Positions 37,030 to 50,646 of a DNA stretch of 64,000 bases are shown here, one piece after another. The notes beneath the pieces were generated by a model. That model made no database searches. It was not told the origin of the DNA and worked only from the letters and a program-made list of their open reading frames with translations. Numbering within the stretch: the stretch's first letter is position 1; each line of letters starts with the position of its first letter. Position numbers and translations under genes: made by a program. Source of the stretch: Escherichia phage PGN829.1; the sequence record NC_070871.1; one strand, 5' to 3'.

Positions 37030-40000
37030 TTGAACAGGAAACATGCTATGTCAACATTTGACCGTCTGGCAGGTTTCGCAGACAGCATCACTAATGCTAA
37101 GCAAGTCGATGTCTCTACTGCAACCTCTCAGAAGCAAGCTGCACAAGGGCAAAGCCCTTTCCAATTAACCCCAGAGAATGCTTACAATCTCCAAACTGGT
37201 CGTGTAGGTAATCTTGGAATTGGTGCATTCGAACCAGGTTCACTTCAGGCAGATTTCACTCAAGCCTCCCCATTAGAAATCCTTAATAAATACGGTAATG
37301 AGCAAGGTCTACAGATTATTAATAGCCGAGCTAATGCTGCTGATGTTGTACGTCAGGACTTATCTAAACAACGTACTAACGCGGAAGCATTTGGTGATAC
37401 TCTTTCTGGTGTTGGTCTTGGTGTTGCTAATACCCTTGGGGGCATTGCTGCTCTTGGTACAGGTCTGGTCAATGATAATGCCGGAGCATCCATTGCTTCC
37501 GGGATGGATTGGCTGAATGAAGGTGTACACAATTTACAGTCTGATGCACTGAATGCTACCCGTAAGGTTGTTCAGAATCAGAACCAGATTTCTGCACAAA
37601 AGAACCAGAAGCTCTATGAAGAAGATATTAAAAATGGGGAGAGCAGTTTGGTTGCCTCCCTGTCTCGCATTGGTCGTGATGCTTTTGATTCTGTTGCTAA
37701 TACACTTGATAATGGTATGGCTGCTACCGATGGGCTGAGTGAAGGTGTTGGTTCTCTCTTTACTGGTGGTCCATTAATTCGTGGTGTATCCGCACTCGGT
37801 AAAGTAATGGTAGGTGGAGATAAAGCCGTTAAAGGTATTACCCTAGCTGCTGAGTTAGGTTCACGTCCTGCACAGATTGCATTGTCTGCTGGTCGTGTTG
37901 CTGCACCTGCTATTGCAATTGGTGGTATGGAAGCTGGTGGTGCATACCAGCAGACTGCTTCTGAAATCATGAAGATGTCCCATCAAGAATTGGCAAGTAA
38001 GTCTCCTGTTTATCAACAACATATCGCTGATGGTTTATCTCCTGATGAAGCACGTCGTCAAACTGCATCTGAAACGGGTATCATTGCTGCTAGCTTAACT
38101 GCTCCAGTTGCTGCTGCTACTGGTCCACTGGTATCTAAGTTTGAACTTAACCCACTTAAGGTAGGTTCACTGGCTGGTGCTGGCTCTAACATGCTTCGTG
38201 AAACCGTAGAAGAAGGTATTCAGTCTGGTACAAGTCAGTTTGCACAGAACAAGGCAATTCAGGGTAATGTAGATGCTAAGCGTGATCTGCTTAAAGGTGT
38301 CGGTGAGCAAGCAGGTCTTGGTGCACTCTATGGCTTCGGTAGTGCTGGTGTTTCTCAGGCTCCTGGTGCAACTGTTAAAGCTGTTGGTGCTTCTGCTGGC
38401 CCTGCTCTTCGTACTACCCTGGCTGGTGCTTCTCTGGTTGGTAGTGCATTAGCAAAAGCTGCTTCTCCTATTACTAACATCCTGGTTCAACGTGGTGAAG
38501 AAGTTGCTAAGCGTAATGAACAAGCATCCCCTGTATCTGATGCCACTGTTAATGCTGCTGCACAAGAAGCTACTGCTCAGGCAGAACAAGCACAAGCAAC
38601 TGTACAGGAAGCAGTAGATGCAATGGATATTTCTCCTGAAGAGAAAGCTGCTGCTACTCAGTATGCTGCTGACTTAACTCAGGCAATGAAGTTTGACCCA
38701 GTAGAGTTAGAGCAAGCTAATCCAGCAATCCGTGAAGCCGTTTCTGGTTCCACTAACCGTGTTGAAGCTATTCAGAAGATGGCTGACCTGGTTAATACTG
38801 CCGAAGACCCTAACGTTCAAATGGAAGCTGCAATCCAGATGTATGACAATATCATGTCTATGGATAGCTTCATTAACCGTGACCCAGGTGCTCTGGCTAA
38901 CCTGGAACAAGGTTCCCCTGCTGCTGCAATCGTTGACCAGTTCTCTGGTCTGATGGCTAACGTTCAGAATACACCTAAAGTACTTCGTGCATTCCGTGCT
39001 ATTCATTCTATGATTCAGGAACAGGCTGAAGCAGGTAAACTGAAAGCTACTGAAGAAGCCAACCAAGCCCAAGCAAACAATATTGCTATGGCTGCTGATA
39101 TGTCTCCAGAAGTACTGGATGCTGATTCAGTGAACATGATTCTGAAACATGCAAGTGAAGGTAAGATTACACTGGGGAATCATCAGCGTGCTGCCCTGCA
39201 ATCGGCTGCTGCCTTGTTACAGGGTGCACGAGAATTTGATGCTAAAGCAGAAGAACTAGGCTTACGTCCTCAAGACATTGTTAGTAAACAGATTAAAACC
39301 GACGAGTCTCGTTCTAATGAAGGTCAGTACTCTGCGTTGCAACATGCTAAACGCATTCGTTCTGCGTACAACTCTGGTAATTTCGATTTGGCTTCCGCTT
39401 ACCTCGACGACTTTATGAAGTTCGCCCAGCACATGCAGAATAAGGTCGGAGCGTTGAATGAGCATCTGATTTCTGGGAATGCGGATAAGAATAAGTCTGT
39501 CCATTATCAGGCTCTTACTCCCTCCCGTGAATGGGTACGTAGTCGTACTGGTCTTGGTGTCAATCCGTATGATACCAAGTCGGTTAAGTTTGCCCAGCAA
39601 GTAGGACTGGAGGCCAAAACCGTAGCTGATATTGCTAACGCACTTGCTACGGCTTACCCGGAGCTTAATGTTTCTCATGTGAAGGTTACTCCATTAGATT
39701 CACGTCTGGACAAGCCTGCTGCCCAGGTAGTTAAAGAGTTCCGTCAAGGTGGTCTTGATGCCACTCAGTCTCAACAGACCAATGAACCAGTGAATCAGGT
39801 TGATGAAACTCCTGCACCAGCGCAAGAGACTACTACTACTGTACAGCCTAAAGCTAAACCAGTGGTAGAAAATAAGACTGTTCCTGTTAAAGAGGCTAGT
39901 TCAAAAGCAGAAGAAGTCTCTACTACTAAGTCTGAAACAGTAGATGCTACCCTCACCAATGAGGATACCACTCAAAAAGTAGCTGAAACTAAAACGGAAA

Positions 40001-43000
40001 TGGAAACAGTTTTCCCTGTCTATAACAATGACAAGACACCGAACCAGTTCCTGAAATCATTTACCCTGCCGGAAGAACCTAAGTCTCGCACCATTGGTTC
40101 TGAATCCCCTTTGACTGATATTAAGCAAGCACTGTCTTCTACTGCACGCTTTGAAGCATTCACTCAAAAAGAAAATAACGCTCTCACAAGTGATGTGATT
40201 AAGCGTTATCAGGACTTAATGGGCTTTGGTGAAACTCTGAAGACTACTCTGTCTGATCGTCTGGCTAAGTTTCTTGCTAATAAGAACGTTGGTAAACGCT
40301 TTGCAGAAGGCACAGAGGCTAACCGTTGGGTAGGTGGTAAGTTACTTAATATCGTAGAGAAAGACGGAGACACCTTTAAGTTCAATGACCAGTTGTTAGA
40401 GACTGCTGTACTTGCTGGTCTGCAATGGCGACTGACTGCTACACAGAATGCTGCTGTTAAAGACATGAAAGATGTAGCTGCTATTACTGGTGTAGAGGCA
40501 TCTCTGTTACCTGAAGGTATTCTGGCTGACTTCGAGAATGCTCAGACTCTGGTTGAAGCTACTAACTCACTGGCTCAAAAGATTGAATCTTACTGGGGTT
40601 TGAATCGCAATCCAAATGCACCACTGGGTTATACCAAAGGTATCCCAATGGCAATGGCTACGGAGATTCTGTCTTCTTTCATTGAGATGGGTGAAGTTAA
40701 AGAATCTATGCTGGATGTGTCTGAGTTTGACCCAGACTCTAATAAGACCGTCGGTCTGTATACCATTGAGAAGCTGGATGATAACGATGCCATTAACAAG
40801 TTCCCTACTGCTATCGAGGAAGCTGTTCTCGTAGAACCAGAAGAGAAAATGTACTTTGGTGATGATATTCCTTCCGTGGCTCAAACTCAGTTACGTAACC
40901 CTGCTGTTAAGAATACCCCAGAGCAGAAAGCTGCTCTTAAAGCAGAACAGGCTACCGAGTTCCGTGTACACATGCCGATGGTTAACTTCTATGAAGCATT
41001 AGGTCGTGACAACATTCTGGAACTGATGGGTGCTGGTACTCTTAATCCTGAACTGCTGAACGTGAACACTGCTAAGTCACTGGAGGGTAAAAACCTGTCA
41101 GTGTCTATGGCATATGATTCCCTGTTCGGTGTAATCAACCAGTTACAGGAACAGGAGAATGGTCTGGATACGCCTATTCACTATGGTTACAACATGACCC
41201 GTGTAGGTCGTATGCAGATGTTAGGTAAGAACAACCCACAATCCAGTAAACTGGTTCGTGAAGCAATTCTGCCAACCTTCTCTACTATTGACTTGAGTAA
41301 TGAAAATAGCCAAACATTCTCTGACTTCCAGCTAGGACTGGCTCAGGCATTGGGTATCAAGGTACATAACATGTCCCGTGAAGCTATGTCTGAAAAGTTG
41401 ACCAAGGCTCTGGAAGGTAATCTGAAACCTGCCGTTGATATGGTGGTTGAGTTTGATAAGTCTGGTCACTTACCAGCTAATGCAGTGGATATTCTGAAAA
41501 CATCTCTGGGCGGCGATAAATCATTCGTAGCTCTTATGGCTCTTATGGAATATGCCCGTTACCTGAACAGTGATGACCGTGCCAACTTTAATACCCCTCT
41601 GTACGTTGAAGCCGATGGTGTAACTAACGGACCAATCAACGCAATGGTATTAATGACCGGTGGTAAGTTCACTTCAGACTGGGTTAAGAATACTGCTAAA
41701 GGTGGCTTGTTCTTCGGTAAAGCTGGTAAGACTATGAATGAACATCGTTCACAGGATGACAGTGTTGACCTGTATGAAGCATCTACCAATGGTCTGCAAC
41801 AAGCACTTAATGAGTTACGTACTACTTACCGTAACAACGTTCCGGTTATGAACCAAATGAATCATCTTCAGAAGTTAATGGACCTGTTTATTAAAGACTT
41901 TAACCTGAATGAAGACGGTACTCTGGACCTGAAACGTGGTATCGCTAAAAACCCACTGACTATTACCATCTATGGTTCTGGTGCTCGTGGTATTGCTGGC
42001 AAGATGGTTAGTGCAATTACTGACACCATCTATGAACGCTTCAGTGATGTTCTGCAAGCTCGTGCTGCTGACCCTAGCATTTCCCCAGCTATGGCAATGT
42101 TTGGTAAGGAGGCTGCGTCTGAGGCTGATGCTCAGGCTATGCTGGATACTTTCCTTACTTCTATGGAAGCACTGACTGGTAATGTTCCAGTTATGCGTAA
42201 AGGTGAACTGTCTATTCAACAGGTAGAAGGTGCTCTGACTGGTAAGTTAGACCCTCAGAAGTTTACCGTATCAGGAAATGCTCTGAAGAACTTACAAGAG
42301 AACATGCTTCACCTGTTCGTTGAACCAATGCGTACTGGTATCCGTAATACTGTTGGTGAAGGTCTGATGCATTCTACTGAGAACTTGCAGAAGGCTACCC
42401 AGATTCAGTCACTGGTATTGCAGGATATGTTCCAGCAACGTGTCCAGGAGAAGCTAGCAGAAAAAGAAAAAGACCCAACATGGAAAAAGGGTGATTTCTT
42501 AACACAGAAAGAACTGAATGAAATCCAGGAATCATTATCCCCACTAGCTCCAATGATTGAGACTGGTTCACAGACTTTCTACATTGCTGGCAGTGAAAAT
42601 ACTGATGTTGCTAACCAAGTTCTGGCTACCAACTTAGATGATCGTATGCGTGTGCCAATGAGCATCTATGCTCCTTCACAGGCAGGTGTTGCAGGTATTC
42701 CTTTTATGACCATTGGTACTGGCGATGGCATGATGATGCAGACCCTTTCTACTATGAAAGGTGCTCCGAAGAATACCCTGAAAATCTTTGATGGTATGAA
42801 CATTGGTATCAACAACATCACTGATGCAAGTCGTAAAGCTAATGAGGCTGTATACACTTCCTGGCAGGGTAACCCTATCAAGAATGTCTACGACTCCTTC
42901 TCTAAGTTCATGAAGAATGTAGACTTCAGCAAACTGTCTGATGAAACCAAACAGGCTATCGCTAAATCTGCTCTGGAATATGACCAGCGTGAAGGTGCTA

Positions 43001-46000
43001 CCGATGACCTGTTACGTGTTGGTGCTGAACAGATTGAACGTAACCTGCGTAATATTGCTCTGGGTGTAGATATTCGTCACAAAGTAATGAACCAGGTACA
43101 GACTACTGTTGACCAGATGGCTGCTGTTGGTGCTCCTTATGTGAACAACGGTAAAATCTCTCTGGAAGGTCTGACCGTAGACCAACAAGTAGCTAAGCTA
43201 AATGAACTGTTCGATGCTGAATTAAACAAACGTCGTGATGCAGTACGTGCTGCTAAAGTAGAACCAGTGAAAGAAGTGCCAGCAATGGAACAGGTTGGTC
43301 GTGTACTGAAGTCTGGTGTACGCCTACTGTCTAATACTGCTATCTCTAAGCTGGCTAAAGAGATGTCTCCGGAACAGCAAGCAGTACTGAAAGAAGTACA
43401 GAAATCCCTTGCTGCTAAAGACTATAAGGTTGTTTACGGTACACCTTCCCAACTGGATGCTTATGCTATTGAGAAGAATATTACTCGCCCAGCACCAGAA
43501 GATATTGAAGCTGCTGAAGCTGGTAATGCGTATGGTTGGACTAACTTTGAAGATAAGACCATCTACTTAGTTACCCCTTCCTTAGAGACTCTGGTTCATG
43601 AATTGGTGCATGCTTCTACTTTTGAATCTGTACTGGCTCACTATGAGGGTACTCCTAATGAAGCGGTCCAGAACATTGAAGACCTGATGAACCAGTTCCG
43701 TGCTCTGGATGTTAAGGATGAATCCCCGGCAGTTCGGGAAGCATATGCAGATGCTCTTAATACTATTAACGGTCATTTATCTAATGGCTTTATTGAGCCA
43801 GCAATGGCTAAAGCTGCTGCACTGAATGAGTACATGGCATGGGGTTTAACCAACCGTGAACTGATTAGTAAGCAGAAGAAAACCACTGCACTTAAGACTA
43901 TGGTTCAGGCTGTATATGAAGCAATTAAACGTCTGGTATTCGGGCGTAAGAAAGCACCAGCTAATGCAGATGATATGTTCTCTGGCTTACTGTTTAACTC
44001 GTCCGTAGTTATGCGTGGGCAAGCTCCTACTGCTGCTGTAGTCAAAGATACTACTCTGTTCCATAACAAAACGTATGGTGACAATACTCGTCTGGAAGAG
44101 CTAGGGAAAACCTTCGATAAACTGATTACTGACTACATTGGTTCTGAACCAGTACAGCAAGTAATTCGTAAAGGTAAGTTCTCTGATGCAGTGGTTAATG
44201 CGACTAAAGTAACTCGTGATGTTCAGGCTCATGGCTTCACTATGAATATGCAGGAACAACGTCTCTTTACTAACATTGTTGCTGCTCTGGCTACTGAGGC
44301 TGCTATTAATCCTGCTGCTCTGGCTCGTGCGCAGGAATACTACACACATGTTACTAAGAACCTGACCGTTGAGTCATTCATGACTGACCCAGATAGTACT
44401 AACCCTGCTGACCGTTACTATGCACAGCAGAAGTTCGATACCATCATGGGTGCTAACAACATTGAGTTTGATTCACAAGGTCGTTCCTCCTTACTGCCTA
44501 CCTTTATTGGTCTGGCGATGGTAAGTGAAGAGGTACGTAAAGTGCTGGCTGATATTCCAGTTATGAAAGTAGACAAGAAATCTGGCAATACCGCTGATGC
44601 AATGCTGACTAACATCGGTACTGCTGCAATGGCTAGTCTGAATGCTCGTGTAGCAGGAGATACTAAAGCTACCAACGTACAGGAAGGTATGGATGCACTG
44701 GCTCAGACAATCATGCAGACCAGTCTTAATGCACAATCCTTCTATGATTCCGTTGCTACTCCTACGGGTAATGCTATTGATCGTGCTAACCAGTATCTGG
44801 TGGACTCTATTGATGTACTGTCTACCCGTGCTTTAGAAGGTGCTCGTGAAGTTGCAGCTAATACCAAGAACCCGTTGGTTAAAGGTGCTGCCCATGCTGC
44901 ACAATTAATAGCTGCTATTGCTACAGAGAAGAATGGTGCAATCGTAGCCGAAGGTGTTATGGCTGCAATGAACCAAGGTAAAGTATGGCAACCCTTTCAC
45001 GATCTGGTTAATGACTTAACTGGTCGTACTAAGAGTAATGCTTCTGTATATGATTTGATTAAGGCAGTGCGTGCCCAGGTACAGGCTGACCGTCAACAGT
45101 TCCGTGAACATCTGCCCACCACTATCGCATCTAAGTTCAGCCGTAAGCTGACTAATGATGAGTGGAAAGCAATGCATACCGGTATGGGTAAAACCGACTT
45201 AGCTGTTCTGCGTGACACTATGTCTCTGGCTGAAATTCGTGACCTGCTGACTGACCAGAAGATTGTTGACCGTGAGGTTAATAAACTGGAAGCAGATTTG
45301 CAGAAACAAGCTGGTCGTAACTGGCCTTTGATTAACCGTAAATCTAAGCAACTGGCTCAGTACATGATTAATGGAACAGTTGGTAATAACCTGCTGCGTA
45401 ATGCTACAGCAATCTCTCGTATGCTGGGTGAACGTCAGGCTGCACGTTCTACTGTAGACGTAGCTCAACTGGATAAACTGATTACTCTGTATGCACTGGA
45501 AGCAATGAGTAAAACTGACCGCGAGGTGTTATCTTCACTGGCTCAGACAGAGATTGAAGGCATGGACTTCGCTACTTCTTATCTGGTTGGTCAGCGTAAA
45601 GATGAAATGGCTAAAGCCAAATCTGATACTCGTGCAACTCTGAACCAGTACAAAGGGTATATTCCTGGTGAGACTAAACAGGGTGTTAACTTGATAGTTG
45701 CTGAAGATAGTCAGTTTGCTGATTTGATTGAGAAGTCCTATGTACGTCTGGGTACTTATCAGGGTAGCTCTGCTAATCGTGGTCCAGCACGTAGCTACTA
45801 CTTTGCACCGGTACAGGCACAGGCTCCATTCTCGCAAGGTATCTTACAGAACGTTCGCAATACTGCTGGTGGTGTAGACCTTGGTACAGGCTTTACGATG
45901 GGTACAATGGTAGCTGGTCGTATCACTGACAAGCCTTCTGTAGACCGTATCACTAAAGCACTGGCTCGCGGTGAACGTGGTAATGAACCACTGCTGCCTG

Positions 46001-47400
46001 TATATGATGATAAAGGCAATGTGGTTGCTTATGAGCAATCTATTGACCCTAACATGCTGAAGCACATTGAGGGTGAGAACCATCTCGCTCGTGCAATCGG
46101 TGTATGGCGTGGTCGTCAGGTAGAGGAAGCTAAGGCTCAGCGTTTCAACGATATGCTGATTGAGAACCTGCATAGCATGTATGAGAACGACATTAAGATG
46201 TCTACCTCTAATAAGTCACAGTACGTTAACCTTCTTGGTTCTAAACTGGATCCAGTAACTGCTGATGCTCTTAAACTGATGAACAGTGAAACTCGTCAGA
46301 AAGCAGAAAGTCTGTTTGGTGAAGGTGAACTGTGGGTACGTCGTGACATGCTGAATGATGCACTGGGTTATCGTGCAGCTTCTGTAGGTGATGCCTGGTC
46401 TGGTAACTCTCGTTGGTCACCGGAAACATTGGATACCTTCAAGAAAGCTATGTTGGGTGTATTTGGCAACCGTGCTTACAAATATGTAATGGGTGGTGAG
46501 AATCTGGTTCAGAACTTAGTTAAAGAAGCCAAAACTCTGATTGTAGTTAAATCAGTAGTTGTGCCTGCTGTTAACTTCCTGGCTAACCTTTACCAGATGG
46601 TCGGTCGTGGTGTACCTGTTAAGAACATTACTAAGAGTATTCCACAGAAGACTGCTGAGATTAATCAGTACCTGAAATCTCGTCTGCGTCAGGTAGATGC
46701 AGAAGCGGAATTACGTGCAGCTACTAACCCGAACCAGATTCGTAAACTTAAAGCTGAGATTCAGTCCATCACTGATAGCCATAAGCGTATGAGTATCTGG
46801 CCTCTGTTAGAAGCTGGTGAGTTTTCTTCAATTGCAGATGCTGGTATTGGTCGTGATGACATCCTGATTACTGAAGGTAAACTTCATGAATACATGGATA
46901 AGCTGGCTGATAAGTTACCTAAGTCTGTACGTAATGCTGGACGTTATGCACTTATCACCAAAGATACTGCTCTGTTCCAGGGTATCCAGAAGACGGTTGA
47001 GTACTCTGACTTTATTGCTAAAGCAATCATCTATGATGATTTGACTCAGCGTAAAGGTAAGACTCGTGAAGAAGCACTTGGACGTGTAACGGAAGAGTTC
47101 ATTAACTATGACCGTCTGCCTGGTCGCTTCCGTGGGTATATGGAAAGTGTTGGTCTTATGTGGTTCTATAACTTTAAGATTCGTTCTGCAAAAATTGCAG
47201 TATCCATGATTCGTAACAACCCGGTACACGCAGCTATGGCTATGTTGGCTCCAACTCCTACCATGTTTGGTAATGTTGGTTTACCTATTCAGGACAACAT
47301 CTTCAGTATTGCTGCACAAGGCAATCTCGGTTACTCCTGGGGCTTCGGTCAGGGACTTCGTGCCCATAACCTTAACCCTTGGCTCAATCTAGCTAACTAA
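37030..47400 (+). CDS. virion-encapsidated RNA polymerase (N4 gp50-like vRNAP)
   Basis: 3456-aa ORF; central single-subunit RNAP motif B (RGIAKNPLTITIYGSG); size and position match N4 vRNAP. Confidence 0.85.
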   Translation: MNRKHAMSTFDRLAGFADSITNAKQVDVSTATSQKQAAQGQSPFQLTPENAYNLQTGRVGNLGIGAFEPGSLQADFTQASPLEILNKYGNEQGLQIINSRANAADVVRQDLSKQRTNAEAFGDTLSGVGLGVANTLGGIAALGTGLVNDNAGASIASGMDWLNEGVHNLQSDALNATRKVVQNQNQISAQKNQKLYEEDIKNGESSLVASLSRIGRDAFDSVANTLDNGMAATDGLSEGVGSLFTGGPLIRGVSALGKVMVGGDKAVKGITLAAELGSRPAQIALSAGRVAAPAIAIGGMEAGGAYQQTASEIMKMSHQELASKSPVYQQHIADGLSPDEARRQTASETGIIAASLTAPVAAATGPLVSKFELNPLKVGSLAGAGSNMLRETVEEGIQSGTSQFAQNKAIQGNVDAKRDLLKGVGEQAGLGALYGFGSAGVSQAPGATVKAVGASAGPALRTTLAGASLVGSALAKAASPITNILVQRGEEVAKRNEQASPVSDATVNAAAQEATAQAEQAQATVQEAVDAMDISPEEKAAATQYAADLTQAMKFDPVELEQANPAIREAVSGSTNRVEAIQKMADLVNTAEDPNVQMEAAIQMYDNIMSMDSFINRDPGALANLEQGSPAAAIVDQFSGLMANVQNTPKVLRAFRAIHSMIQEQAEAGKLKATEEANQAQANNIAMAADMSPEVLDADSVNMILKHASEGKITLGNHQRAALQSAAALLQGAREFDAKAEELGLRPQDIVSKQIKTDESRSNEGQYSALQHAKRIRSAYNSGNFDLASAYLDDFMKFAQHMQNKVGALNEHLISGNADKNKSVHYQALTPSREWVRSRTGLGVNPYDTKSVKFAQQVGLEAKTVADIANALATAYPELNVSHVKVTPLDSRLDKPAAQVVKEFRQGGLDATQSQQTNEPVNQVDETPAPAQETTTTVQPKAKPVVENKTVPVKEASSKAEEVSTTKSETVDATLTNEDTTQKVAETKTEMETVFPVYNNDKTPNQFLKSFTLPEEPKSRTIGSESPLTDIKQALSSTARFEAFTQKENNALTSDVIKRYQDLMGFGETLKTTLSDRLAKFLANKNVGKRFAEGTEANRWVGGKLLNIVEKDGDTFKFNDQLLETAVLAGLQWRLTATQNAAVKDMKDVAAITGVEASLLPEGILADFENAQTLVEATNSLAQKIESYWGLNRNPNAPLGYTKGIPMAMATEILSSFIEMGEVKESMLDVSEFDPDSNKTVGLYTIEKLDDNDAINKFPTAIEEAVLVEPEEKMYFGDDIPSVAQTQLRNPAVKNTPEQKAALKAEQATEFRVHMPMVNFYEALGRDNILELMGAGTLNPELLNVNTAKSLEGKNLSVSMAYDSLFGVINQLQEQENGLDTPIHYGYNMTRVGRMQMLGKNNPQSSKLVREAILPTFSTIDLSNENSQTFSDFQLGLAQALGIKVHNMSREAMSEKLTKALEGNLKPAVDMVVEFDKSGHLPANAVDILKTSLGGDKSFVALMALMEYARYLNSDDRANFNTPLYVEADGVTNGPINAMVLMTGGKFTSDWVKNTAKGGLFFGKAGKTMNEHRSQDDSVDLYEASTNGLQQALNELRTTYRNNVPVMNQMNHLQKLMDLFIKDFNLNEDGTLDLKRGIAKNPLTITIYGSGARGIAGKMVSAITDTIYERFSDVLQARAADPSISPAMAMFGKEAASEADAQAMLDTFLTSMEALTGNVPVMRKGELSIQQVEGALTGKLDPQKFTVSGNALKNLQENMLHLFVEPMRTGIRNTVGEGLMHSTENLQKATQIQSLVLQDMFQQRVQEKLAEKEKDPTWKKGDFLTQKELNEIQESLSPLAPMIETGSQTFYIAGSENTDVANQVLATNLDDRMRVPMSIYAPSQAGVAGIPFMTIGTGDGMMMQTLSTMKGAPKNTLKIFDGMNIGINNITDASRKANEAVYTSWQGNPIKNVYDSFSKFMKNVDFSKLSDETKQAIAKSALEYDQREGATDDLLRVGAEQIERNLRNIALGVDIRHKVMNQVQTTVDQMAAVGAPYVNNGKISLEGLTVDQQVAKLNELFDAELNKRRDAVRAAKVEPVKEVPAMEQVGRVLKSGVRLLSNTAISKLAKEMSPEQQAVLKEVQKSLAAKDYKVVYGTPSQLDAYAIEKNITRPAPEDIEAAEAGNAYGWTNFEDKTIYLVTPSLETLVHELVHASTFESVLAHYEGTPNEAVQNIEDLMNQFRALDVKDESPAVREAYADALNTINGHLSNGFIEPAMAKAAALNEYMAWGLTNRELISKQKKTTALKTMVQAVYEAIKRLVFGRKKAPANADDMFSGLLFNSSVVMRGQAPTAAVVKDTTLFHNKTYGDNTRLEELGKTFDKLITDYIGSEPVQQVIRKGKFSDAVVNATKVTRDVQAHGFTMNMQEQRLFTNIVAALATEAAINPAALARAQEYYTHVTKNLTVESFMTDPDSTNPADRYYAQQKFDTIMGANNIEFDSQGRSSLLPTFIGLAMVSEEVRKVLADIPVMKVDKKSGNTADAMLTNIGTAAMASLNARVAGDTKATNVQEGMDALAQTIMQTSLNAQSFYDSVATPTGNAIDRANQYLVDSIDVLSTRALEGAREVAANTKNPLVKGAAHAAQLIAAIATEKNGAIVAEGVMAAMNQGKVWQPFHDLVNDLTGRTKSNASVYDLIKAVRAQVQADRQQFREHLPTTIASKFSRKLTNDEWKAMHTGMGKTDLAVLRDTMSLAEIRDLLTDQKIVDREVNKLEADLQKQAGRNWPLINRKSKQLAQYMINGTVGNNLLRNATAISRMLGERQAARSTVDVAQLDKLITLYALEAMSKTDREVLSSLAQTEIEGMDFATSYLVGQRKDEMAKAKSDTRATLNQYKGYIPGETKQGVNLIVAEDSQFADLIEKSYVRLGTYQGSSANRGPARSYYFAPVQAQAPFSQGILQNVRNTAGGVDLGTGFTMGTMVAGRITDKPSVDRITKALARGERGNEPLLPVYDDKGNVVAYEQSIDPNMLKHIEGENHLARAIGVWRGRQVEEAKAQRFNDMLIENLHSMYENDIKMSTSNKSQYVNLLGSKLDPVTADALKLMNSETRQKAESLFGEGELWVRRDMLNDALGYRAASVGDAWSGNSRWSPETLDTFKKAMLGVFGNRAYKYVMGGENLVQNLVKEAKTLIVVKSVVVPAVNFLANLYQMVGRGVPVKNITKSIPQKTAEINQYLKSRLRQVDAEAELRAATNPNQIRKLKAEIQSITDSHKRMSIWPLLEAGEFSSIADAGIGRDDILITEGKLHEYMDKLADKLPKSVRNAGRYALITKDTALFQGIQKTVEYSDFIAKAIIYDDLTQRKGKTREEALGRVTEEFINYDRLPGRFRGYMESVGLMWFYNFKIRSAKIAVSMIRNNPVHAAMAMLAPTPTMFGNVGLPIQDNIFSIAAQGNLGYSWGFGQGLRAHNLNPWLNLAN

Positions 47401-48056: not shown

Positions 48057-48437
48057 TCAGATTGTACAACCACCACCATCACAGGTGTTGTTTTCTGCAA
48101 AGGAAGCCAGAGCTTTAGCAGTCTCTTCTTTCTCATGCAGTACCTGACGTAGCAGGTAACCTTCTAATTCCCAAATCTTATTGAATGCATTTTCATATGC
48201 ATACTGACGGCCTTTTTGCTCATCATAGATAGCTGGGTCAACACAGGCAGATACACCTTCAACTTTGAAGCCATTTTCCAAGATGATAATGCAATAGGTT
48301 ATCAGACCCAGGTTAGCCAAATCATCTGCCGGGAGTGCAGATGGATCAACAAATGCAGACTTCACTGCATCAGCTCCATTAAAATAGTAGACGCTCTTAA
48401 TCTTAGCTTCGATTGCTTCTTTACTTACTGTTGCCAT
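48057..48437 (-). CDS. hypothetical protein (possibly N4 gp49-family)
   Basis: Start at MATVSK with GAGG RBS; family assignment from memory only. Confidence 0.35.
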   Translation of the reverse strand: MATVSKEAIEAKIKSVYYFNGADAVKSAFVDPSALPADDLANLGLITYCIIILENGFKVEGVSACVDPAIYDEQKGRQYAYENAFNKIWELEGYLLRQVLHEKEETAKALASFAENNTCDGGGCTI

Positions 48438-48604
48438 TATTAGCCTCATAGAGTGGTTTGAGTTTGTACTTAAACATGACTGCGTTGTTATAGGCTACGC
48501 TACCTGCAAACACCAAAGACTTGCGTCCTCGATTATCCGTTACCTCATAGGCATACGGGGTTGAGATTAGGTCAATCATATTGATTATCCAATTATTAAT
48601 ACTC

Positions 48605-48643
48605 AAATAAAAAAGTCCCCCAGAGTGACGGCTCCAGGGGACT
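48605..48643 (-). terminator. intrinsic terminator
   Basis: 7-bp stem agtcccc/ggggact with internal pairing, followed on minus strand by a long T tract. Confidence 0.5.
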
Positions 48644-49325
48644 TAGTACTATTTACCCATAGCTGGGAGGCTTTTGGTTCTTACCACGAAGACAGTCCAC
48701 GCTGACCAGGCTTGGGATTGATAGTCCCGTTCCTGTGGTAATTACTCAGGCTAGGATTTAAGGAGTTCCTATTCTCCAGCGAAATTCCCGTCGAAGGGAA
48801 TAACAATACAATAGCAGCCACTGGACTGTCTTACCAGTGTTGTCTTTAGAGTGCGGTGCAATCAGGACTATGTTACTGCTAAATAGGTGAGTCATGCCAG
48901 ACTCTAACTGGCTCCTTCTTCGCAATCCTTACATACCCCTACATAATTATTGCGTTAAGCTTTTTTGTTTAAGTTTAAGTGAAGGCGTTCTTGCTGACTC
49001 ATAATAGGGTGGGCGTTTGACGAATGACTAGTTCGTTACTACCCATTTGCCATAAGTACCTGGCGACTTGGGTTTGAGGTGGGAGTCCGAGTCCTGTACA
49101 GCCTTACCGTTAACACATTGGCAGCGTATCTAGAATTGCACTTCCGGCAACTGGATTTAACTGTTACACCTCAAATATGGTAGGGGCGTCCAGAAGTCTC
49201 ATCTGGTACTTACGCCGTCGTATGGTTACGACTTACCCCCATAATTCTTCCAATTCAGAGTAGCACTGTCACGGTAGGTGCTTTAAATGCCGGGAAACAT
49301 TTAAATATACAATGCTACTTTGAAT

Positions 49326-49448
49326 TGGTTATCAGTGAAGGATTCGAACCTCCGGTTGGAGTCTATAGCTTACCGCAGCAGCCCTCCAATCTAGCGGTGT
49401 CACACTTAGTCCAAACTTGAACATGTCAAGCCATCTCGTGCAACTGAT
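49326..49448 (-). ncRNA. tRNA-like element 1 (T-arm, acceptor, encoded CCA; non-canonical length)
   Basis: Minus strand GGAGG-TTCGAAT-CCTTC T-arm, 3' ACTGATA-A-CCA; perfect 5' partner TATCAGT lies 124 nt upstream; no canonical cloverleaf found by hand. Confidence 0.3.
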
Positions 49449-49450
49449 AA

Positions 49451-49516
49451 TTGGTTCCGGCGTCTGGACTCGAACCAGAACACTCATGCCGTGCACGGCA
49501 CTAGTACCTACACCGG
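49451..49516 (-). ncRNA. tRNA-like element 2 (T-arm, acceptor, encoded CCA; too short for a canonical tRNA)
   Basis: TCTGG-TTCGAGT-CCAGA T-arm, acceptor TCCGGTG/CGCCGGA, 3' A-CCA; 66 nt; 2 nt from element 1. Confidence 0.3.
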
Positions 49517-49697
49517 AATAAATTGCCAGGGATTCCACCTGGCTCCATCTGTTTTTAAAGTCACTCAGATATCGTCTGGACTTGTTGTGGAGTGACGCAC
49601 CACCTCACTCTTAAATGTTAACCCATTCCCAGCCCCACAACACACGCTACGGTTAAGATTATTGCGCATGGTGTATGGTCTTGCTGGTCACAACGGA

Positions 49698-49780
49698 AAG
49701 AGCACTTGCGGAGTCGAACCGCCTTGTCTTCTAGAGCTTTCGCATATAACTAATCGCTAGTCTACGTCACCCGTAATGCT
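49698..49780 (-). ncRNA. tRNA-like element 3 (T-arm plus 7-bp acceptor, no CCA)
   Basis: GGCGG-TTCGACT-CCGCA T-arm; acceptor GAGCATT/AGTGCTC; 83 nt; no anticodon arm found by hand. Confidence 0.25.
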
Positions 49781-50475
49781 CTTTCCTGTTATGTTCCCTG
49801 ACTTATTAATCACACCTCAGGGACGCAGTGCGCCGAATTTGTTTACAAGGAATCGGAAGACCTTGCTGACTTACAGGCTATTACGCCGCCATCAGAATAA
49901 CATCATCGTTTGCATTTATGTAATTGGTTCGTTTCTAAAAAACCGCATAATCGCTTACGAAAACTATCAAAGAGTACACTAAGCACAGGTAGCTATCCTG
50001 CCGTCTTCTCTACCTACACCGGCTACAGTGTAGACCTCCGCACGTTAGCTTAATATACTCATTGATAGGATGTTATAATAGGGGAGGGAGGACGAGTCCC
50101 TCTTTACCCTATGATTTAGTTTACACGTAAGACCTAACATTTCAATGCTGGATGAATAGAGTAATGAACTATCCGACATTAATGGTTAATGTTGTGCTCA
50201 GCATGAGCGTTAGTTGATAAGGGATCTGAAGCCTTATCCCAAAGATACTAACCTTTGGGATATAGCCTAAGATTCAGAAATGGCCACTATAGGGAGAGGC
50301 CATTGATTAACCCGAATGTTGCTTTACATTTTCTGTGATAACCCATTCTTAAAATAGTCTGTCTGACGGATGGGGGGCCACCCCTAGCGTCAGTGCCATA
50401 CGGCAAAGATTAAGTTAAGAAAGGTTATGATAGGAGTTCCTATCTCAAAGGATTCTAACAGAACCCTTCACGATA

Positions 50476-50646
50476 TTAACTACTCTTTTTCAGTGCTTCT
50501 ACTTCGCCCTCTTTATACCAAGCATATGGTATTAAGATTTTGCAGCCTTCTGATTCAATGTGAAATGCTTTCTTTCCTTCAACAGGTTCTCCACCCATGA
50601 AAGAACTAATCTTCCCATTGAGCCAGTGAATAGTAAATTTGTTCAT
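50476..50646 (-). CDS. small ORF (56 aa), hypothetical
   Basis: Own translation: ATG at 50646 with GAGG RBS, MNKFTIHWLNGK...; below the track length cutoff. Confidence 0.3.
   Translation of the reverse strand: MNKFTIHWLNGKISSFMGGEPVEGKKAFHIESEGCKILIPYAWYKEGEVEALKKSS

What the first reader, a model, noticed from the sequence alone, without database searches (positions are those of the whole stretch)
48607..50475. 1.9-kb ORF-poor, hairpin-rich region inside the replication block
Between the gp49-like gene and a 56-aa ORF there is no ORF over 70 aa on the transcribed strand, in a genome that is otherwise tightly packed. Besides the tRNA-like elements it holds many stable hairpins, for example gataaggg...ccttatc and ccaaag...ctttgg near 50220-50270 and the palindrome cttgaacatgtcaag near 49415. 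It could hold further ncRNAs, a replication origin or degraded genes.
Basis: seen in the sequence. Interest (0 to 1): 0.45.

Follow-up and report, generated by a model that had tools for sequence, protein, structure and literature searches.

The report
Phage RNA that may hijack tmRNA
The ORF-free 1.9 kb of this N4-like phage is a non-coding RNA operon whose centrepiece, shared by many unrelated enterobacterial phages, looks like the tag-encoding half of the bacterial ribosome-rescue RNA (tmRNA) fused to an antisense guide against the host's own tmRNA, so it may reprogram host ribosome rescue.

Summary
Window 48607-50475 has no ORF above 68 aa on either strand. It lies on the minus strand, where N4 keeps its tRNA cluster, and ends in a strong terminator (48644-48613). 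ARAGORN finds no tRNA or tmRNA.

The region is a mosaic of structured RNA modules. Some derive from tRNAs but lack an anticodon. Several recur in unrelated phages.

The key module (49968->49795, minus strand) resembles tmRNA. It has a start-less 10-codon tag ORF (ANDDVILMAA) after AUAAAU, then a stop-codon hairpin and two pseudoknots.
- Covariation supports the fold: 91.5% of cells paired, against 34-46% in slid controls.
- The tag frame is under coding selection: synonymous to non-synonymous 871:624, against 47:1415 and 224:1163 in the other frames.
- No alanine-accepting tRNA-like domain exists, not even in the whole HK620 genome.
- The conserved 5' segment is antisense to host tmRNA nt 68-106, which cover the PK1 3' strand, the resume codon and tag codons 1-6. 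All 73 representatives beat the 99th percentile of the null.

Inferred mechanism: the RNA docks on host tmRNA, masks its tag template and supplies its own. I found no description of this. Nothing supports a replication origin or decayed protein genes.

The parts
48607..50475 (-). Whole non-coding RNA island, in the slot of the N4 tRNA cluster between the gp47.2-like and gp48-like genes
   Evidence: No ORF above 68 aa. The same slot in N4 holds tRNA-Asn, Ser, Thr and Pro. It is mosaic against 161 phage records.
50452..50479 (-). Sigma-70-like promoter match (TTAATA-16-TgTAGAAT) just after the stop codon of the 56-aa gene. This is a candidate start of the RNA operon and nothing more.
   Evidence: Consensus scan only, 9 of 12 positions with an extended -10 TG. 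Not evidence of function.
50210..50475 (-). 5' segment that is almost invariant among gamaleyaviruses. Function unknown.
   Evidence: Six-genome alignment is nearly identical over about 270 nt and shows no informative covariation. The segment is found only in G7C-like phages.
49964..50068 (-). Cassette A: a long hairpin (21-bp closing helix CTATCAATGAGTATATTAAGC / GCTTAGTGTACTCTTTGATAG) with a variable insert, immediately 5' of the tmRNA-like core. Probably a processing or stabilising element.
   Evidence: Fold z = -3.35. The helix is kept by compensatory changes between phage groups. It is a local hairpin rather than a ring-closing P2 helix. In swi2-type phages a TTGACA-17-TAGATT promoter replaces it.
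49935..49968 (-). Antisense guide GAUAGUUUUCGUAAGCGAUUAUGCGGUUUUUUAG. It is complementary to E. coli tmRNA nt 68-106 in three blocks:
- UAGUUUUCGU pairs with nt 97-106 (tag codons 3-6)
- GCGAUUA pairs with nt 85-91 (covers G90 and C91 of the resume codon)
- UGCGGUUUUUUA pairs with nt 68-79 (3' strand of PK1)
   Evidence: Duplex and alignment statistics. The target site is conserved in host tmRNAs. Cofolding gives ddG = -11.3 kcal/mol.
49916..49950 (-). Hairpin upstream of the resume codon, in the position of tmRNA PK1, with the nearly invariant loop UUUAGAAAC, followed by the upstream determinant AUAAAU
   Evidence: Helix 1 is 92% paired in the register of the common family. N4-type sequences, including this window, pair UUAUG with CAUAA, 4 nt further 3'. 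That register is my reading of the alignment and was not counted.
49881..49913 (-). tmRNA-type tag reading frame with no start codon: GCA AAC GAU GAU GUU AUU CUG AUG GCG GCG UAA = ANDDVILMAA*
   Evidence: Rfam tmRNA_permuted and beta_tmRNA partial hits. The tag is 10 aa in every homologue recovered, and TAA, TAG and TGA all occur at the same stop position. Synonymous to non-synonymous single-base codon differences are 871:624 in this frame, against 47:1415 and 224:1163 in the other frames. Third-position entropy is 1.03, against 0.55 and 0.42.
49866..49895 (-). Helix-5-like hairpin that holds the end of the tag ORF, with the stop codon in or next to the loop
   Evidence: Helices 2 and 3. The pair at columns 107/130 is G-C in 39 sequences and A-U in 34. 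The pair at 112/123 is G-C in 27, A-U in 26, U-A in 4 and C-G in 2.
49833..49865 (-). Pseudoknot 'PK2': hairpin CAAGG...CCUUG whose loop CCGA pairs with the downstream UCGG
   Evidence: Helices 4 and 5, each with three compensatory pairs, 99.2% and 91.4% paired.
49795..49830 (-). Pseudoknot 'PK3': CACU pairs with GGUG, and UCCCUGA pairs with UCAGGGA, across the conserved loop UGAUUAAUAAG
   Evidence: Helices 6 and 7 show compensatory changes, for example CAC/GUG, CAG/CUG and CAU/AUG. Stem 2 is 4, 7 or 8 bp in different families.
49695..49786 (-). Cassette B: a tRNA-like three-way junction with a 12-bp 'acceptor-like' helix (GGAAAGAGCAUU / AGUGCUCUUUCC), a central arm and a T-arm (GGCGGUUCGACUCCGC). 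It has no anticodon loop, no G3:U70 pair and no CCA end.
   Evidence: Fold z = -4.19. Weak tRNA-Sec-like Rfam hit of 18 bits. The same cassette occurs in swi2. Cassettes of this family are interchangeable between the A and B positions.
49583..49878 (-). Block absent from the other N4-like loci compared. Its 3' part (49583-49690) matches T1-like siphoviruses (Segz_1, KFS-SE2) and Klebsiella siphoviruses. The left breakpoint lies inside the tag ORF, so the core here is a recombinant.
   Evidence: Block map against 13 N4-like loci. Siphovirus matches cover query positions 1-108, which equal 49690-49583. The 3' half of the core (49878-49764) is nearly identical to loci L046 and L050, from roughly 42-45-kb viral contigs.
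49521..49579 (-). Module E: hairpin AUCUG/CAGAU plus a T-arm-like hairpin CCAGG-UGGAAUC-CCUGG. It also occurs in N4 and in unrelated phages.
   Evidence: 95.6% identical to N4. Hits in Klebsiella 40-kb and 60-kb phages and in Salmonella phage 9NA.
49452..49517 (-). Element b: a 66-nt tRNA-derived RNA with a 7-bp acceptor stem, a canonical T-arm, an encoded A-CCA end and a 6-bp tetraloop hairpin where the anticodon arm would be. It has no anticodon.
   Evidence: Fold z = -3.2. It aligns to tRNA-Asn with the D loop and anticodon loop shortened. The N4 homologue is 95.6% identical. Some records call it 'tRNA-Undet'. ARAGORN does not call it.
49326..49449 (-). Element c: a 124-nt tRNA-like RNA with a 7-bp acceptor stem (UAUCAGU/ACUGAUA), a T-arm and an A-CCA end, with large insertions. 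It contains the 'palindrome' near 49415.
   Evidence: Read from the sequence. The T-stem shows a compensatory A-U to G-C change against L059. The fold is not better than shuffles (z = -0.25). ARAGORN does not call it.
49073..49175 (-). Element X: a structured RNA of about 100 nt with a 9-bp closing stem. Function unknown.
   Evidence: 98.9% identical to N4. It sits inside the tRNA array of Certrevirus phages. The closing stem shows compensatory changes.
48607..48644 (-). Rho-independent terminator that ends the RNA operon: a 13-bp stem followed by UUUUUUAU
   Evidence: Terminator scan. The homologous site is annotated as a terminator in G7C and in PhAPEC5/PhAPEC7.

Best explanation
SHOWN. The gap is a minus-strand non-coding RNA operon. 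It is a remodelled version of the N4 tRNA cluster and ends at a strong terminator. It holds anticodon-less tRNA derivatives (b, c, cassette B), other conserved structured modules (E, X) and a tmRNA-derived RNA of about 175 nt (49968->49795).

That RNA has:
- the mRNA-like half of a tmRNA: the upstream determinant AUAAAU, an alanine resume codon, a 10-codon tag ending in a hydrophobic -LMAA, and a stop codon in a hairpin
- two pseudoknots after the tag
- no tRNA-like acceptor domain
- a 5' 34 nt that is antisense to host tmRNA nt 68-106

INFERRED, step 1. The RNA is released from the polycistronic transcript. This would happen by processing at the flanking tRNA-like cassettes, or, in swi2-type phages, by transcription from its own promoter.

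INFERRED, step 2. Its single-stranded 5' end (UAGUUUUCGU) seeds pairing on the unstructured tag codons 3-6 of host tmRNA. Pairing then zips across the host resume codon into the 3' strand of PK1. This hides the host template, much as synthetic anti-ssrA oligonucleotides do.

INFERRED, step 3. The host tmRNA still supplies the alanyl-tRNA-like domain, SmpB and EF-Tu entry. The tethered phage RNA then offers its own resume codon. Rescued ribosomes would add the phage tag in place of ANDENYALAA and terminate normally.

The benefit to the phage is unknown. It might be an altered proteolytic fate for tagged proteins while ribosome rescue is kept.
For: Identity and structure
- Partial tmRNA hits over the tag.
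- The tag is 10 aa in every homologue recovered.
- A second sample fetched by the PK3 loop alone still gives 10-codon tags, with synonymous changes in codons 1 and 2 (GCU AAU).
- TAA, TAG and TGA all occur at the same stop position.
- Coding signature: 871:624 synonymous to non-synonymous in the tag frame, against 47:1415 and 224:1163.
- Covariation over 7 helices including both pseudoknots: 91.5% of cells paired against 34-46% when slid, and 224 double-change cells against 70.7 +/- 13.2 in shuffles, 0 of 500 shuffles reaching it.

No acceptor domain
- ARAGORN finds none in the window or in 60 homologous loci.
- ARAGORN finds no tRNA or tmRNA in the whole HK620 genome, and the only Rfam family that reaches its gathering score there is the lambda cIII thermoregulator.

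Antisense guide
- RNAduplex gives -25 to -34 kcal/mol, always on tmRNA nt 74-138.
- blastn-short gives E = 4e-4 for 19/22 and 20/24 matches.
- Local alignment scores are 39-44 against a null of 18 +/- 3 (0 of 2000 shuffles) for three families. The window itself scores 29 (12 of 2000 shuffles, 0 of 338 natural chunks).
- All 73 distinct representatives exceed the 99th percentile of the null and 66 exceed its maximum. 66 of the 73 map to about nt 68-103/106.
- Insertions and deletions fall between the paired blocks.
- The guide matches the host tag (GACGAAAAC), not the phage's own tag.
- L165 has lost the UUUAGAAAC hairpin loop but keeps the guide.
- The target site is almost invariant in Enterobacterales and Vibrionaceae. 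Scores drop in Pasteurellaceae and Idiomarinaceae.
- Cofolding gives ddG of -9 to -16 kcal/mol, against mostly -1 to -9 (full range 0 to -14) in controls.

Feasibility
- DNA oligonucleotides complementary to tmRNA suppress trans-translation in vitro (PMC3384345).
- Natural two-piece tmRNAs show that a tag template can work when held to the acceptor part only by base pairing (established knowledge; PMC11915505).

Expression context
- In HK620 the element lies between pR'/qut and the tQ terminator.
- In swi2 a TTGACA-17-TAGATT promoter sits directly upstream.
Against: - Everything about docking and tag swapping is inferred from sequence. No transcript ends, no RNA-RNA interaction and no tagged peptides have been seen.
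- In this window the match to tmRNA is weaker than in other families (score 28-29, p about 0.006). Three nucleotides of the seed are buried at the base of cassette A.
- Part of the guide (UUAUG, or CUUUG in the common family) also forms the phage RNA's own hairpin, which is supported by covariation. Pairing with tmRNA would have to compete with that hairpin and open host PK1.
- The invariant GUUUU could instead pair with the invariant loop AGAAAC to make an internal pseudoknot. Both are invariant, so covariation cannot decide.
- Salmonella phages keep GUUUUCGU. From memory only (not checked here), Salmonella tmRNA reads GAAACC at that point. So there is no co-variation with that host.
- The cofolding gain is only modestly better than controls, and one control set overlaps it.
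- Nothing shows that a ribosome can be loaded with a template base-paired to an intact tmRNA that still carries its own template.
- The window copy is a recombinant whose flanking cassettes do not match each other. It could be an inactive copy.
Confidence: 0.45

Rival explanations
1. Pure antisense inhibitor. The RNA only sequesters host tmRNA or triggers its cleavage (for example by RNase III on the roughly 30-bp duplex), shutting down trans-translation. The tag-like part would be a leftover or a decoy for SmpB or protein S1 and would not be translated.
For: The same antisense evidence as the best explanation. Synthetic anti-tmRNA oligonucleotides inhibit trans-translation. A TLD-only phage RNA (mycobacteriophage DS6A type) is thought to inhibit tmRNA (PMC4131195).
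Against: An untranslated leftover would not keep exactly 10 codons, a stop at a fixed position using TAA, TAG or TGA, a hydrophobic C-terminus and a strong excess of synonymous change in one frame only. It would also not keep the AUAAAU determinant, the helix-5-like hairpin and two pseudoknots by compensatory changes.
Confidence: 0.2
2. Self-sufficient split tmRNA. One of the neighbouring tRNA-like cassettes (cassette B with its T-arm, or element b or c with an encoded CCA) is the acceptor piece, and it works with the core as a phage-encoded two-piece tmRNA.
For: T-arm-bearing cassettes abut the core in this window and in swi2. They also do so in L021, L023 and L009. Elements b and c have acceptor stems, T-arms and an A-CCA end. 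Rfam's permuted-tmRNA model gives a weak hit with the same layout of closing helix, hairpin and tag.
Against: - No cassette has the G3:U70 alanine identity pair.
- The T-arm lies next to the 3' strand of the closing helix, which is the wrong side for a permuted tmRNA gene.
- Cassettes are interchangeable and often lack any T-arm. HK620 has none and no tRNA at all.
- Element b is present in N4, which lacks the core.
- Pairing between the core flanks shows no locus-specific covariation (-16.0 same locus against -15.6 cross locus).
Confidence: 0.1
3. Neutral debris. The region would be a decaying tRNA cluster plus a captured fragment of an ssrA gene, with no present function.
For: Canonical tRNAs found in relatives have been deleted here, one apparently between short CCTATT repeats. 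ARAGORN finds nothing. Content differs widely among gamaleyaviruses.
Against: - The core is found in 471 phage records from many unrelated groups and in prophages of 147 of 5426 E. coli genomes.
- Its helices co-vary and its tag frame is under purifying selection.
- Modules E with b, and element X, are 95.6-98.9% identical between this phage and N4. The neighbouring non-coding blocks match only 77-83%.
- Apart from the tag start, the core shares no sense-strand similarity with enterobacterial ssrA.
Confidence: 0.05
4. Replication origin or decayed protein-coding genes.
For: The region is ORF-free and hairpin-rich and sits among replication and recombination genes.
Against: - The GC-skew turn is at about 47.0-47.4 kb and follows gene orientation. 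No inflection falls inside the region.
- No internal minus-strand ORF matches a PHROG family.
- The single plus-strand hit (phrog_26260) lies antisense to the conserved RNA core, and its open frame varies from 26 to 75 codons among homologues. It looks like a family of mis-called ORFs.
- Relatives carry tRNA genes here, not protein genes.
Confidence: 0.04

Closest known systems
tmRNA (SsrA; Rfam RF00023, clan CL00001)
   Same: It has a start-less tag reading frame that resumes at an alanine codon after an A/U-rich determinant. The 10-residue tag follows the ANDxxxLxAA pattern, like ANDENYALAA. The stop codon sits in a helix-5-like hairpin, followed by pseudoknots.
   Different: It has no tRNA-like domain: no acceptor stem with G3:U70, no T-arm of its own and no CCA. 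It has no P2 helix closing the ring. A hairpin stands where PK1 would be, and there are two rather than three downstream pseudoknots. It scores below Rfam thresholds (30.7 against 47). It carries an antisense segment against the host tmRNA.
Two-piece (circularly permuted) tmRNA of alpha- and beta-proteobacteria and cyanobacteria (RF04321, RF01849-51)
   Same: The tag template is a separate piece that works through base pairing with the acceptor part. The gene layout of closing helix, hairpin and tag gives the best, though weak, Rfam hit.
   Different: In those RNAs both pieces come from one gene and the acceptor piece has a T-arm and CCA. Here the proposed partner is the host's intact one-piece tmRNA, and pairing would be to its template region rather than to acceptor and P2 strands.
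TLD-only tmRNA of mycobacteriophage DS6A (PMC4131195)
   Same: Both are phage-encoded partial tmRNAs thought to interfere with host trans-translation.
   Different: DS6A keeps only the tRNA-like domain. This element is the mirror image: only the mRNA-like domain and pseudoknots, plus an antisense guide.
Synthetic anti-ssrA / anti-tmRNA oligonucleotides used in cell-free translation and ribosome display (PMC3384345)
   Same: From my memory of the published ribosome-display oligonucleotide (not checked here), both are complementary to the tag-coding part of tmRNA. The oligonucleotides block tagging.
   Different: The oligonucleotides are artificial DNA with no replacement template. The phage RNA is natural, structured and carries its own tag frame.
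Phage tRNA gene clusters (N4, T5, Certrevirus and others)
   Same: Same genomic slot as the N4 tRNA cluster. The array is polycistronic and ends in a terminator. Several modules keep T-arms, acceptor stems and CCA ends.
   Different: No module in this window has an anticodon loop or passes ARAGORN or Rfam as a tRNA. The array has become a set of non-decoding RNAs.

Membership tests
tmRNA (one-piece) | tRNA-like domain: paired 5' and 3' ends forming an acceptor stem with G3:U70, a T-arm and a 3' CCA | tested here: not met
   ARAGORN finds no tmRNA in the window, in 60 homologous loci or in the whole HK620 genome. Rfam tmRNA models match only the tag region.
tmRNA (one-piece) | mRNA-like domain: start-less ORF resuming at an Ala codon and encoding a short tag with a hydrophobic C-terminus, then a stop | tested here: met
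   GCA AAC ... GCG GCG UAA = ANDDVILMAA*. 17 peptide variants, all 10 aa. Synonymous to non-synonymous 871:624 in frame, against 47:1415 and 224:1163.
tmRNA (one-piece) | Pseudoknots flanking the tag, and helix 5 holding the stop codon | tested here: met
   The helix-5-like hairpin and two downstream pseudoknots have compensatory changes. The element upstream of the tag is a hairpin rather than a demonstrable pseudoknot.
tmRNA (one-piece) | Long P2 helix joining sequence 5' of PK1 to sequence 3' of the last pseudoknot | tested here: not met
   The flanking strands form two separate local hairpins. Cross-pairing energy is the same within a locus and between loci (-16.0 against -15.6 kcal/mol).
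tmRNA (one-piece) | Rfam gathering score | tested here: not met
   tmRNA_permuted 30.7 bits against a threshold of 47. beta_tmRNA 22.3 bits against 84.
Two-piece (permuted) tmRNA | An acceptor piece (T-arm, 3' acceptor strand, CCA) encoded upstream of the coding piece inside the closing helix | tested here: not met
   The insert of cassette A has no T-loop or CCA in this window or in HK620. Where a T-arm is present (L021, L023) it lies next to the 3' strand, as in an ordinary tRNA.
Trans-acting antisense (base-pairing) RNA | Extended, conserved complementarity to a defined site in the target RNA, better than chance | tested here: met
   All 73 representatives align to the antisense of tmRNA nt 68-106 above the 99th percentile of the null. 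Three families give 0 of 2000 shuffles. The target site is conserved in host tmRNAs.
Trans-acting antisense (base-pairing) RNA | A demonstrated RNA-RNA interaction and an effect on the target | not testable with these tools
   Needs pull-down, RIL-seq, EMSA and genetics. Only a cofolding estimate is available (ddG -9 to -16 kcal/mol).
tRNA genes | Cloverleaf with a 7-nt anticodon loop that passes tRNA detectors | tested here: not met
   ARAGORN finds 0 genes in the window. No Rfam tRNA hit at E <= 10 apart from an 18-bit tRNA-Sec-like hit on cassette B. Element b aligns to tRNA-Asn with the anticodon loop deleted.

The most novel reading that the evidence does not exclude
Diverse enterobacterial phages would share a mobile 'template-swapping' RNA. 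These phages include N4-like, T1-like, Klebsiella siphoviruses, Vi01-like, FelixO1-like and P22/HK620-like prophages. The RNA would parasitise the host ribosome-rescue system. It would anneal to host tmRNA over the resume codon and the first tag codons, and make rescued ribosomes translate a phage-encoded tag instead of the host degradation tag. This would be a natural bimolecular tmRNA made of a host acceptor and a viral template. In lambdoid lysogens it would be expressed constitutively from the pR' leader.
Probability: 0.35. Interest if true: 0.92.

Novelty: categorically new. Interest (0 to 1): 0.8.

Why it matters
tmRNA-SmpB is close to universal in bacteria, and phages are known to depend on it. 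The phage-encoded relatives I could find described are complete tmRNAs or a tRNA-like fragment.

A tag template that lacks its own acceptor but carries a guide against the host tmRNA would be a new way for a virus to reprogram a host quality-control pathway. The virus would rewrite the degradation signal rather than block or duplicate the machinery.

It would also show that trans-translation can accept a template supplied in trans to an intact tmRNA. That bears on how the template is loaded into the ribosome, and it offers a natural scaffold for tag engineering or for inhibiting trans-translation.

There are practical consequences too.
- The element is unannotated in the phage genomes sampled here and in prophages of about 3% of complete E. 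coli genomes.
- It is repeatedly mis-annotated as 'hypothetical protein'.
- A covariance model would clean up annotation and allow a census.
- The surrounding island shows that 'tRNA clusters' of phages can evolve into arrays of non-decoding tRNA-like RNAs that are exchanged between unrelated phages.

Tried and rejected
- Ring-closing P2 helix between the strand before the hairpin and the strand after PK3. Rejected because there is no locus-specific covariation. Both strands belong to local hairpins.
- Permuted tmRNA gene with the acceptor piece inside cassette A. Rejected because the inserts are variable, usually lack a T-loop or CCA, and carry the T-arm on the wrong side when it is present.
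- A conserved CGAAAR partner for the invariant UUUUCG inside the cassettes. It is present in only 53 of 109 loci, no better than control 6-mers.
- ARAGORN's 'tmRNA' in swi2 (L003 1663-2037). This is a false positive that borrows the 3' half of tRNA-Met and gives a nonsense tag.
- Homology of the whole element to E. coli ssrA. On the sense strand only the tag start aligns.
- Co-variation of the guide with Salmonella tmRNA. This was uninformative because Salmonella phages keep the same guide.
- Replication origin. There is no skew signal inside the region.
- Decayed protein genes. No credible family hits were found.
- My regular expressions for counting cassettes across loci were badly designed and gave nothing usable.
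- One viral scan used a mis-specified pattern and returned unrelated loci.
- Literature searches for the tags, for tmRNA-like phage RNAs, for natural anti-tmRNA RNAs and for mRNA-like domains in prophages found no description.

Sampling caveat: the first set of homologues was fetched with a pattern that fixes the first three tag codons and the sequence upstream of them. The second set was fetched by the PK3 loop alone and supports the same conclusions.


Full report
**Context.** The window comes from an N4-like podovirus of the G7C group (Gamaleyavirus). A 3456-aa virion RNA polymerase is encoded at 37030-47400 on the plus strand. The best DNA matches are Escherichia phages PBM-3, PD205, St11Ph5 and ECBP1. 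All genes flanking the finding are on the minus strand, so I read the region on that strand.

**Check of the observation.** Between the 61-aa gene (48421-48606) and the 56-aa gene (50476-50646) the longest ORF on either strand is 68 aa.
- The two flanking small genes match PHROG families at E = 9e-21 and 7e-43. None of the internal minus-strand ORFs matches anything.
- Cassettes A and B and element b fold significantly better than shuffles (z = -3.2 to -4.2). Elements c and X do not.
- ARAGORN finds no tRNA or tmRNA in the whole window.
- The same slot in N4, between gp47 and gp48, is a 1.5-kb ORF-free gap holding tRNA-Asn, Ser, Thr and Pro.
- A 13-bp-stem intrinsic terminator on the minus strand closes the region at 48644-48613. 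It is annotated as a terminator in G7C.
- The GC-skew turn lies at about 47.0-47.4 kb, where the convergent genes meet, not inside the region.

**A tmRNA-like tag frame.** A permissive Rfam scan gave sub-threshold hits to tmRNA_permuted and beta_tmRNA at 49832-49984. The aligned part reads CAUAAAU GCA AAC GAU GAU GUU AUU CUG AUG GCG GCG UAA. This is a start-less frame encoding ANDDVILMAA, the same length and pattern as the E. coli tag ANDENYALAA.

A distant BLAST with this segment found it in 471 phage records from unrelated groups. They include:
- N4-like phages
- T1-like siphoviruses and Klebsiella siphoviruses of 45-50 kb
- Vi01-like Ackermannviridae
- FelixO1-like phages
- the P22-like phage HK620

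It is almost always unannotated. It also lies in prophages of 147 of 5426 complete E. coli genomes, again with no annotated feature under the match.

In HK620 and in a related STEC prophage it sits between the Q antiterminator gene and the holin gene. In HK620 that places it between pR'/qut and the tQ terminator. N4 and G7C themselves lack it.

**The tag is under coding selection.** I fetched about 120 homologous loci from IMG/VR by a pattern. I fetched a second sample using only the loop of the last pseudoknot.
- Every copy recovered encodes a 10-residue tag. There are 17 variants, mostly AN[DE]xxxL[AMI][AV]A.
- Among 35 distinct DNA versions, third-codon-position entropy is 1.03, against 0.55 and 0.42 at positions 1 and 2.
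- Single-base codon differences are 871 synonymous to 624 non-synonymous in the tag frame. The other two frames give 47:1415 and 224:1163.
- The last alanine uses all four GCN codons. The stop is TAA, TAG or TGA at the same position.
- In the second sample codons 1 and 2 also vary synonymously (GCU AAU).
- An overlapping AUG-initiated frame is not conserved in length.

I conclude that the frame is translated, and translated without a start codon. That is how trans-translation works.

**Structure of the core.** On a 73-sequence alignment I specified seven helices and counted pairs. The helices are:
- a hairpin upstream of the resume codon
- a two-part helix-5-like hairpin with the stop codon in its loop
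- two H-type pseudoknots

Results of the count:
- 91.5% of cells form standard pairs, against 34-46% when the 3' partners are slid by 1-3 columns.
- 15 pairs carry compensatory changes.
- 224 cells changed on both sides, against 70.7 +/- 13.2 in shuffles (0 of 500 shuffles reached it).
- Both pseudoknot stems co-vary, for example CCGA/UCGG, CCAG/CUGG, CCAA/UUGG and CAC/GUG, CAG/CUG, CAU/AUG.

The counted register of the upstream hairpin is that of the common family. In this window the hairpin reads UUAUG/CAUAA, 4 nt further 3'. That is my reading of the alignment and was not counted.

In window coordinates on the minus strand:

| Part | Coordinates |
|---|---|
| Upstream hairpin | 49950-49916 |
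| Tag ORF | 49913-49881 |
| Helix-5-like hairpin | 49895-49866 |
| PK2 | 49865-49833 |
| PK3 | 49830-49795 |

**No acceptor domain.** The core is bracketed by two long hairpins, cassette A (50068-49964) and cassette B (49786-49695). Their closing helices share a consensus (CAGGUAAGAGCAUU / AGUGCUCUUUCC) and co-vary between phage groups.

I tested whether the strand before the core pairs with the strand after it, as tmRNA helix P2 does. It does not. Same-locus and cross-locus energies are equal (-16.0 against -15.6 kcal/mol), whereas each local hairpin is better within its own locus.

The inserts of the cassettes are variable and interchangeable. The same insert is cassette A in L021 and cassette B in L009. 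Some inserts contain a D-like hairpin and a T-arm next to the 3' strand, which is ordinary tRNA topology and not that of a permuted tmRNA. Many contain no T-arm at all. None has G3:U70.

Further negative evidence:
- ARAGORN finds no tmRNA in 60 loci.
- ARAGORN finds no tRNA or tmRNA anywhere in HK620. The only Rfam family that reaches its gathering score there is the lambda cIII thermoregulator.
- In swi2-type phages cassette A is replaced by a TTGACA-17-TAGATT promoter. The RNA should then begin at about AGAUAGUUUUCG.
- In several N4-like loci a tRNA 3' end lies 5 nt upstream of cassette A.
- In the N4-type version the core is followed directly by a pseudo-tRNA.

I infer that the cassettes and tRNAs act as punctuation or protection that releases a core RNA of about 175-200 nt.

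**The antisense guide.** This leaves a translated tag template with no acceptor. The 5' leader of the core contains the most invariant residues of the whole element (GUUUUCG, GCGA, UGCGG).

Duplex prediction against E. coli ssrA placed the leader on tmRNA nt 74-138 in six families, at -25 to -34 kcal/mol. The leader is in effect the reverse complement of tmRNA nt 68-106. For this window (49968-49935) the pairing is:
- UAGUUUUCGU with nt 97-106 (tag codons 3-6)
- GCGAUUA with nt 85-91 (the -5 to -1 determinant and the first two bases of the resume codon)
- UGCGGUUUUUUA with nt 68-79 (3' strand of PK1)

That is about 29 bp. Other families reach about 32 bp.

Statistics:
- blastn-short gives E = 4e-4.
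- Local alignment scores are 39-44, against 18 +/- 3 for dinucleotide shuffles (0 of 2000) and 0 of 338 natural 363-nt chunks. The window scores 29 (12 of 2000; 0 of 338).
- All 73 distinct representatives exceed the 99th percentile of the null and 66 exceed its maximum. 66 of the 73 map to about nt 68-103/106.

Four features argue that this is selected pairing and not a relic.
- Length variation is confined to the linkers between the paired blocks.
- The leader matches the host tag sequence (GACGAAAACUA), not the phage's own diverged tag.
- A variant that has lost the neighbouring hairpin loop (L165) keeps an 11-nt perfect match.
- The target site is nearly invariant across Enterobacterales and Vibrionaceae (scores 39-44). 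It is degraded in Pasteurellaceae, Idiomarinaceae and beyond (scores 14-30).

Cofolding with full-length tmRNA predicts net gains of -9 to -16 kcal/mol, against mostly -1 to -9 (full range 0 to -14) for shuffled leaders. One control set overlaps. By sequence, only the tag start aligns to ssrA in the sense orientation.

**Proposed mechanism (inferred).**
1. The free 5' end seeds on the unstructured tag codons of host tmRNA.
2. Pairing extends over the resume codon into PK1.
3. The host template is masked.
4. The phage hairpin, AUAAAU and GCA are left at the place where the host linker and resume codon normally lie.
5. The host supplies the alanyl-tRNA-like domain, SmpB and EF-Tu delivery. The ribosome resumes on the phage frame and terminates at its stop codon.

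Two precedents make this plausible. Oligonucleotides complementary to tmRNA suppress trans-translation in vitro (PMC3384345). Natural two-piece tmRNAs work with a base-paired template piece (PMC11915505).

The phage tags end in -LMAA, -LAVA or -LMVA rather than -ALAA. From published work on ClpX, ClpA and SspB recognition of the ssrA tag (my recollection, not checked here), such changes could alter proteolytic targeting. This is speculation.

**Weak points.**
- No experimental data exist.
- The guide overlaps the RNA's own covariation-supported hairpin and would have to compete with it and with host PK1.
- GUUUU could instead pair with the invariant loop AGAAAC to make an internal pseudoknot.
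- Salmonella phages do not adapt the guide to the one difference I recall in Salmonella tmRNA.
- In this window the seed is partly buried in cassette A, and the copy is a recombinant.

**Rest of the region.**
- *Recombinant core.* The block 49878-49583 is absent from the other N4-like loci compared. Its 3' part (49690-49583) matches T1-like and Klebsiella siphoviruses. The breakpoint is inside the tag ORF. Conserved modules therefore act as recombination sites between unrelated phages.
- *Modules E and b.* Module E (49579-49521) and element b (49517-49452) are 95.6% identical to N4. Element b is a tRNA-Asn-like molecule with an intact acceptor stem, T-arm and A-CCA end. A 6-bp tetraloop hairpin stands in place of the anticodon arm.
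- *Element c.* Element c (49449-49326) is a 124-nt tRNA-like RNA with an A-CCA end and a compensatory change in its T-stem.
- *Element X.* Element X (49175-49073) is 98.9% identical to N4. It also lies inside the tRNA arrays of Certrevirus phages, and its 9-bp closing stem co-varies.
It offers no covariation, so its function is open.
- *Lost tRNAs.* Relatives carry tRNA or pseudo-tRNA genes (a tRNA-Ile(aat), an Ala-like, a Cys-like and an unassignable one) that are deleted here.

**Literature.** Searches for the tag peptides, for tmRNA-like phage RNAs, for natural anti-tmRNA RNAs and for mRNA-like domains in prophages found nothing that describes this element.

The curated tmRNA surveys list only mycobacteriophages and Bacillus phage G as phages with ssrA, plus the TLD-only DS6A (PMC4131195). 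The 2025 update rejected truncated forms that lack the gene ends (PMC11915505).

My library is limited to open-access papers, so an earlier description cannot be excluded.

**Verdict.**

| Claim | Confidence |
|---|---|
| The region is a non-coding RNA operon | high |
| The core is a tmRNA-derived, tag-encoding RNA with no acceptor domain and a conserved antisense match to host tmRNA | about 0.9 |
| It docks on host tmRNA and swaps the tag | about 0.35-0.45 |

Noticed in passing
window 49776-49982 (+): The 68-aa plus-strand ORF antisense to the RNA core matches phrog_26260 (unknown function, E = 7.5e-7). Among homologues the open frame there ranges from 26 to 75 codons. The PHROG is probably a family of ORFs mis-called on a conserved RNA gene. 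Bas96 and other records annotate 'hypothetical proteins' across this region.
   Followed up: partly
window 49073-49175 (-); L126 2001-2089; L233 301-417; L234 301-416: Element X is 98.9% identical between this phage and N4. It also sits between tRNA-Glu and tRNA-Asp in the tRNA array of Certrevirus phages (KaOmega, POP17). Its 9-bp closing stem shows compensatory changes. It matches no Rfam family.
   Followed up: partly
L004 (HK620) 1285-1951; L128 (E. coli E2865 prophage) 2625-3698: In lambdoid phages the tmRNA-like element lies in the late leader between pR'/qut and the first terminator. If pR' is constitutive as in lambda, lysogens should make this RNA all the time. 147 of 5426 complete E. 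coli genomes carry it, with no annotated feature under the match.
   Followed up: partly
L003 (swi2) 1465-1500: A near-consensus sigma-70 promoter (TTGACA, 17 nt, TAGATT) replaces cassette A directly upstream of the guide. This gives a predicted 5' end for the core RNA. A cloverleaf-like module and a tRNA-Met follow the core before a terminator.
   Followed up: partly
window about 49879; 49583-49878: The core in this window is chimeric. It is N4-type up to the middle of the tag ORF. After that it matches small-siphovirus-type copies of the element (the 3' part matches T1-like and Klebsiella siphoviruses). This implies recombination between unrelated phages inside the conserved tag frame.
   Followed up: yes
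window about 50075 and about 48885, compared with L059 11041-11112 and 12185-12259: tRNA-like genes present in ECBP1-like and PBM-3 relatives (an Ala-like pseudo-tRNA and a tRNA-Ile(aat)) are precisely missing here. The first loss looks like a deletion between CCTATT repeats.
   Followed up: partly
window 50432-50443 and 48761-48772 (-): The exact 12-mer ATAGGAACTCCT occurs twice in the 64-kb window, once near each end of the region and both times on the minus strand. Only 2 of 100 shuffles give two or more matches. Its meaning is unknown.
   Followed up: partly
L005 (Shigella phage Ag3) 2199-2308: There is a sub-threshold Rfam hit to the enterobacterial sRNA STnc100 (33.7 bits, E = 2e-4). It lies in the same 1.8-kb ORF-free stretch that holds the tmRNA-like element and a tRNA-Ser.
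   Followed up: no
window 48930-48945 (-); L003 1880-1900: The motif UAUGUAGGGGUAUGUA is shared between this region and a long hairpin module downstream of the core in swi2. It may mark another exchanged RNA module.
   Followed up: no
window 49795-49830 (-) versus E. coli ssrA, roughly nt 240-250: The invariant PK3 loop UGAUUAA is complementary to UUAAUCA in host tmRNA. I compared these by eye only and did not compute the position or any statistic. It is only 7 bp and may be chance.
   Followed up: no
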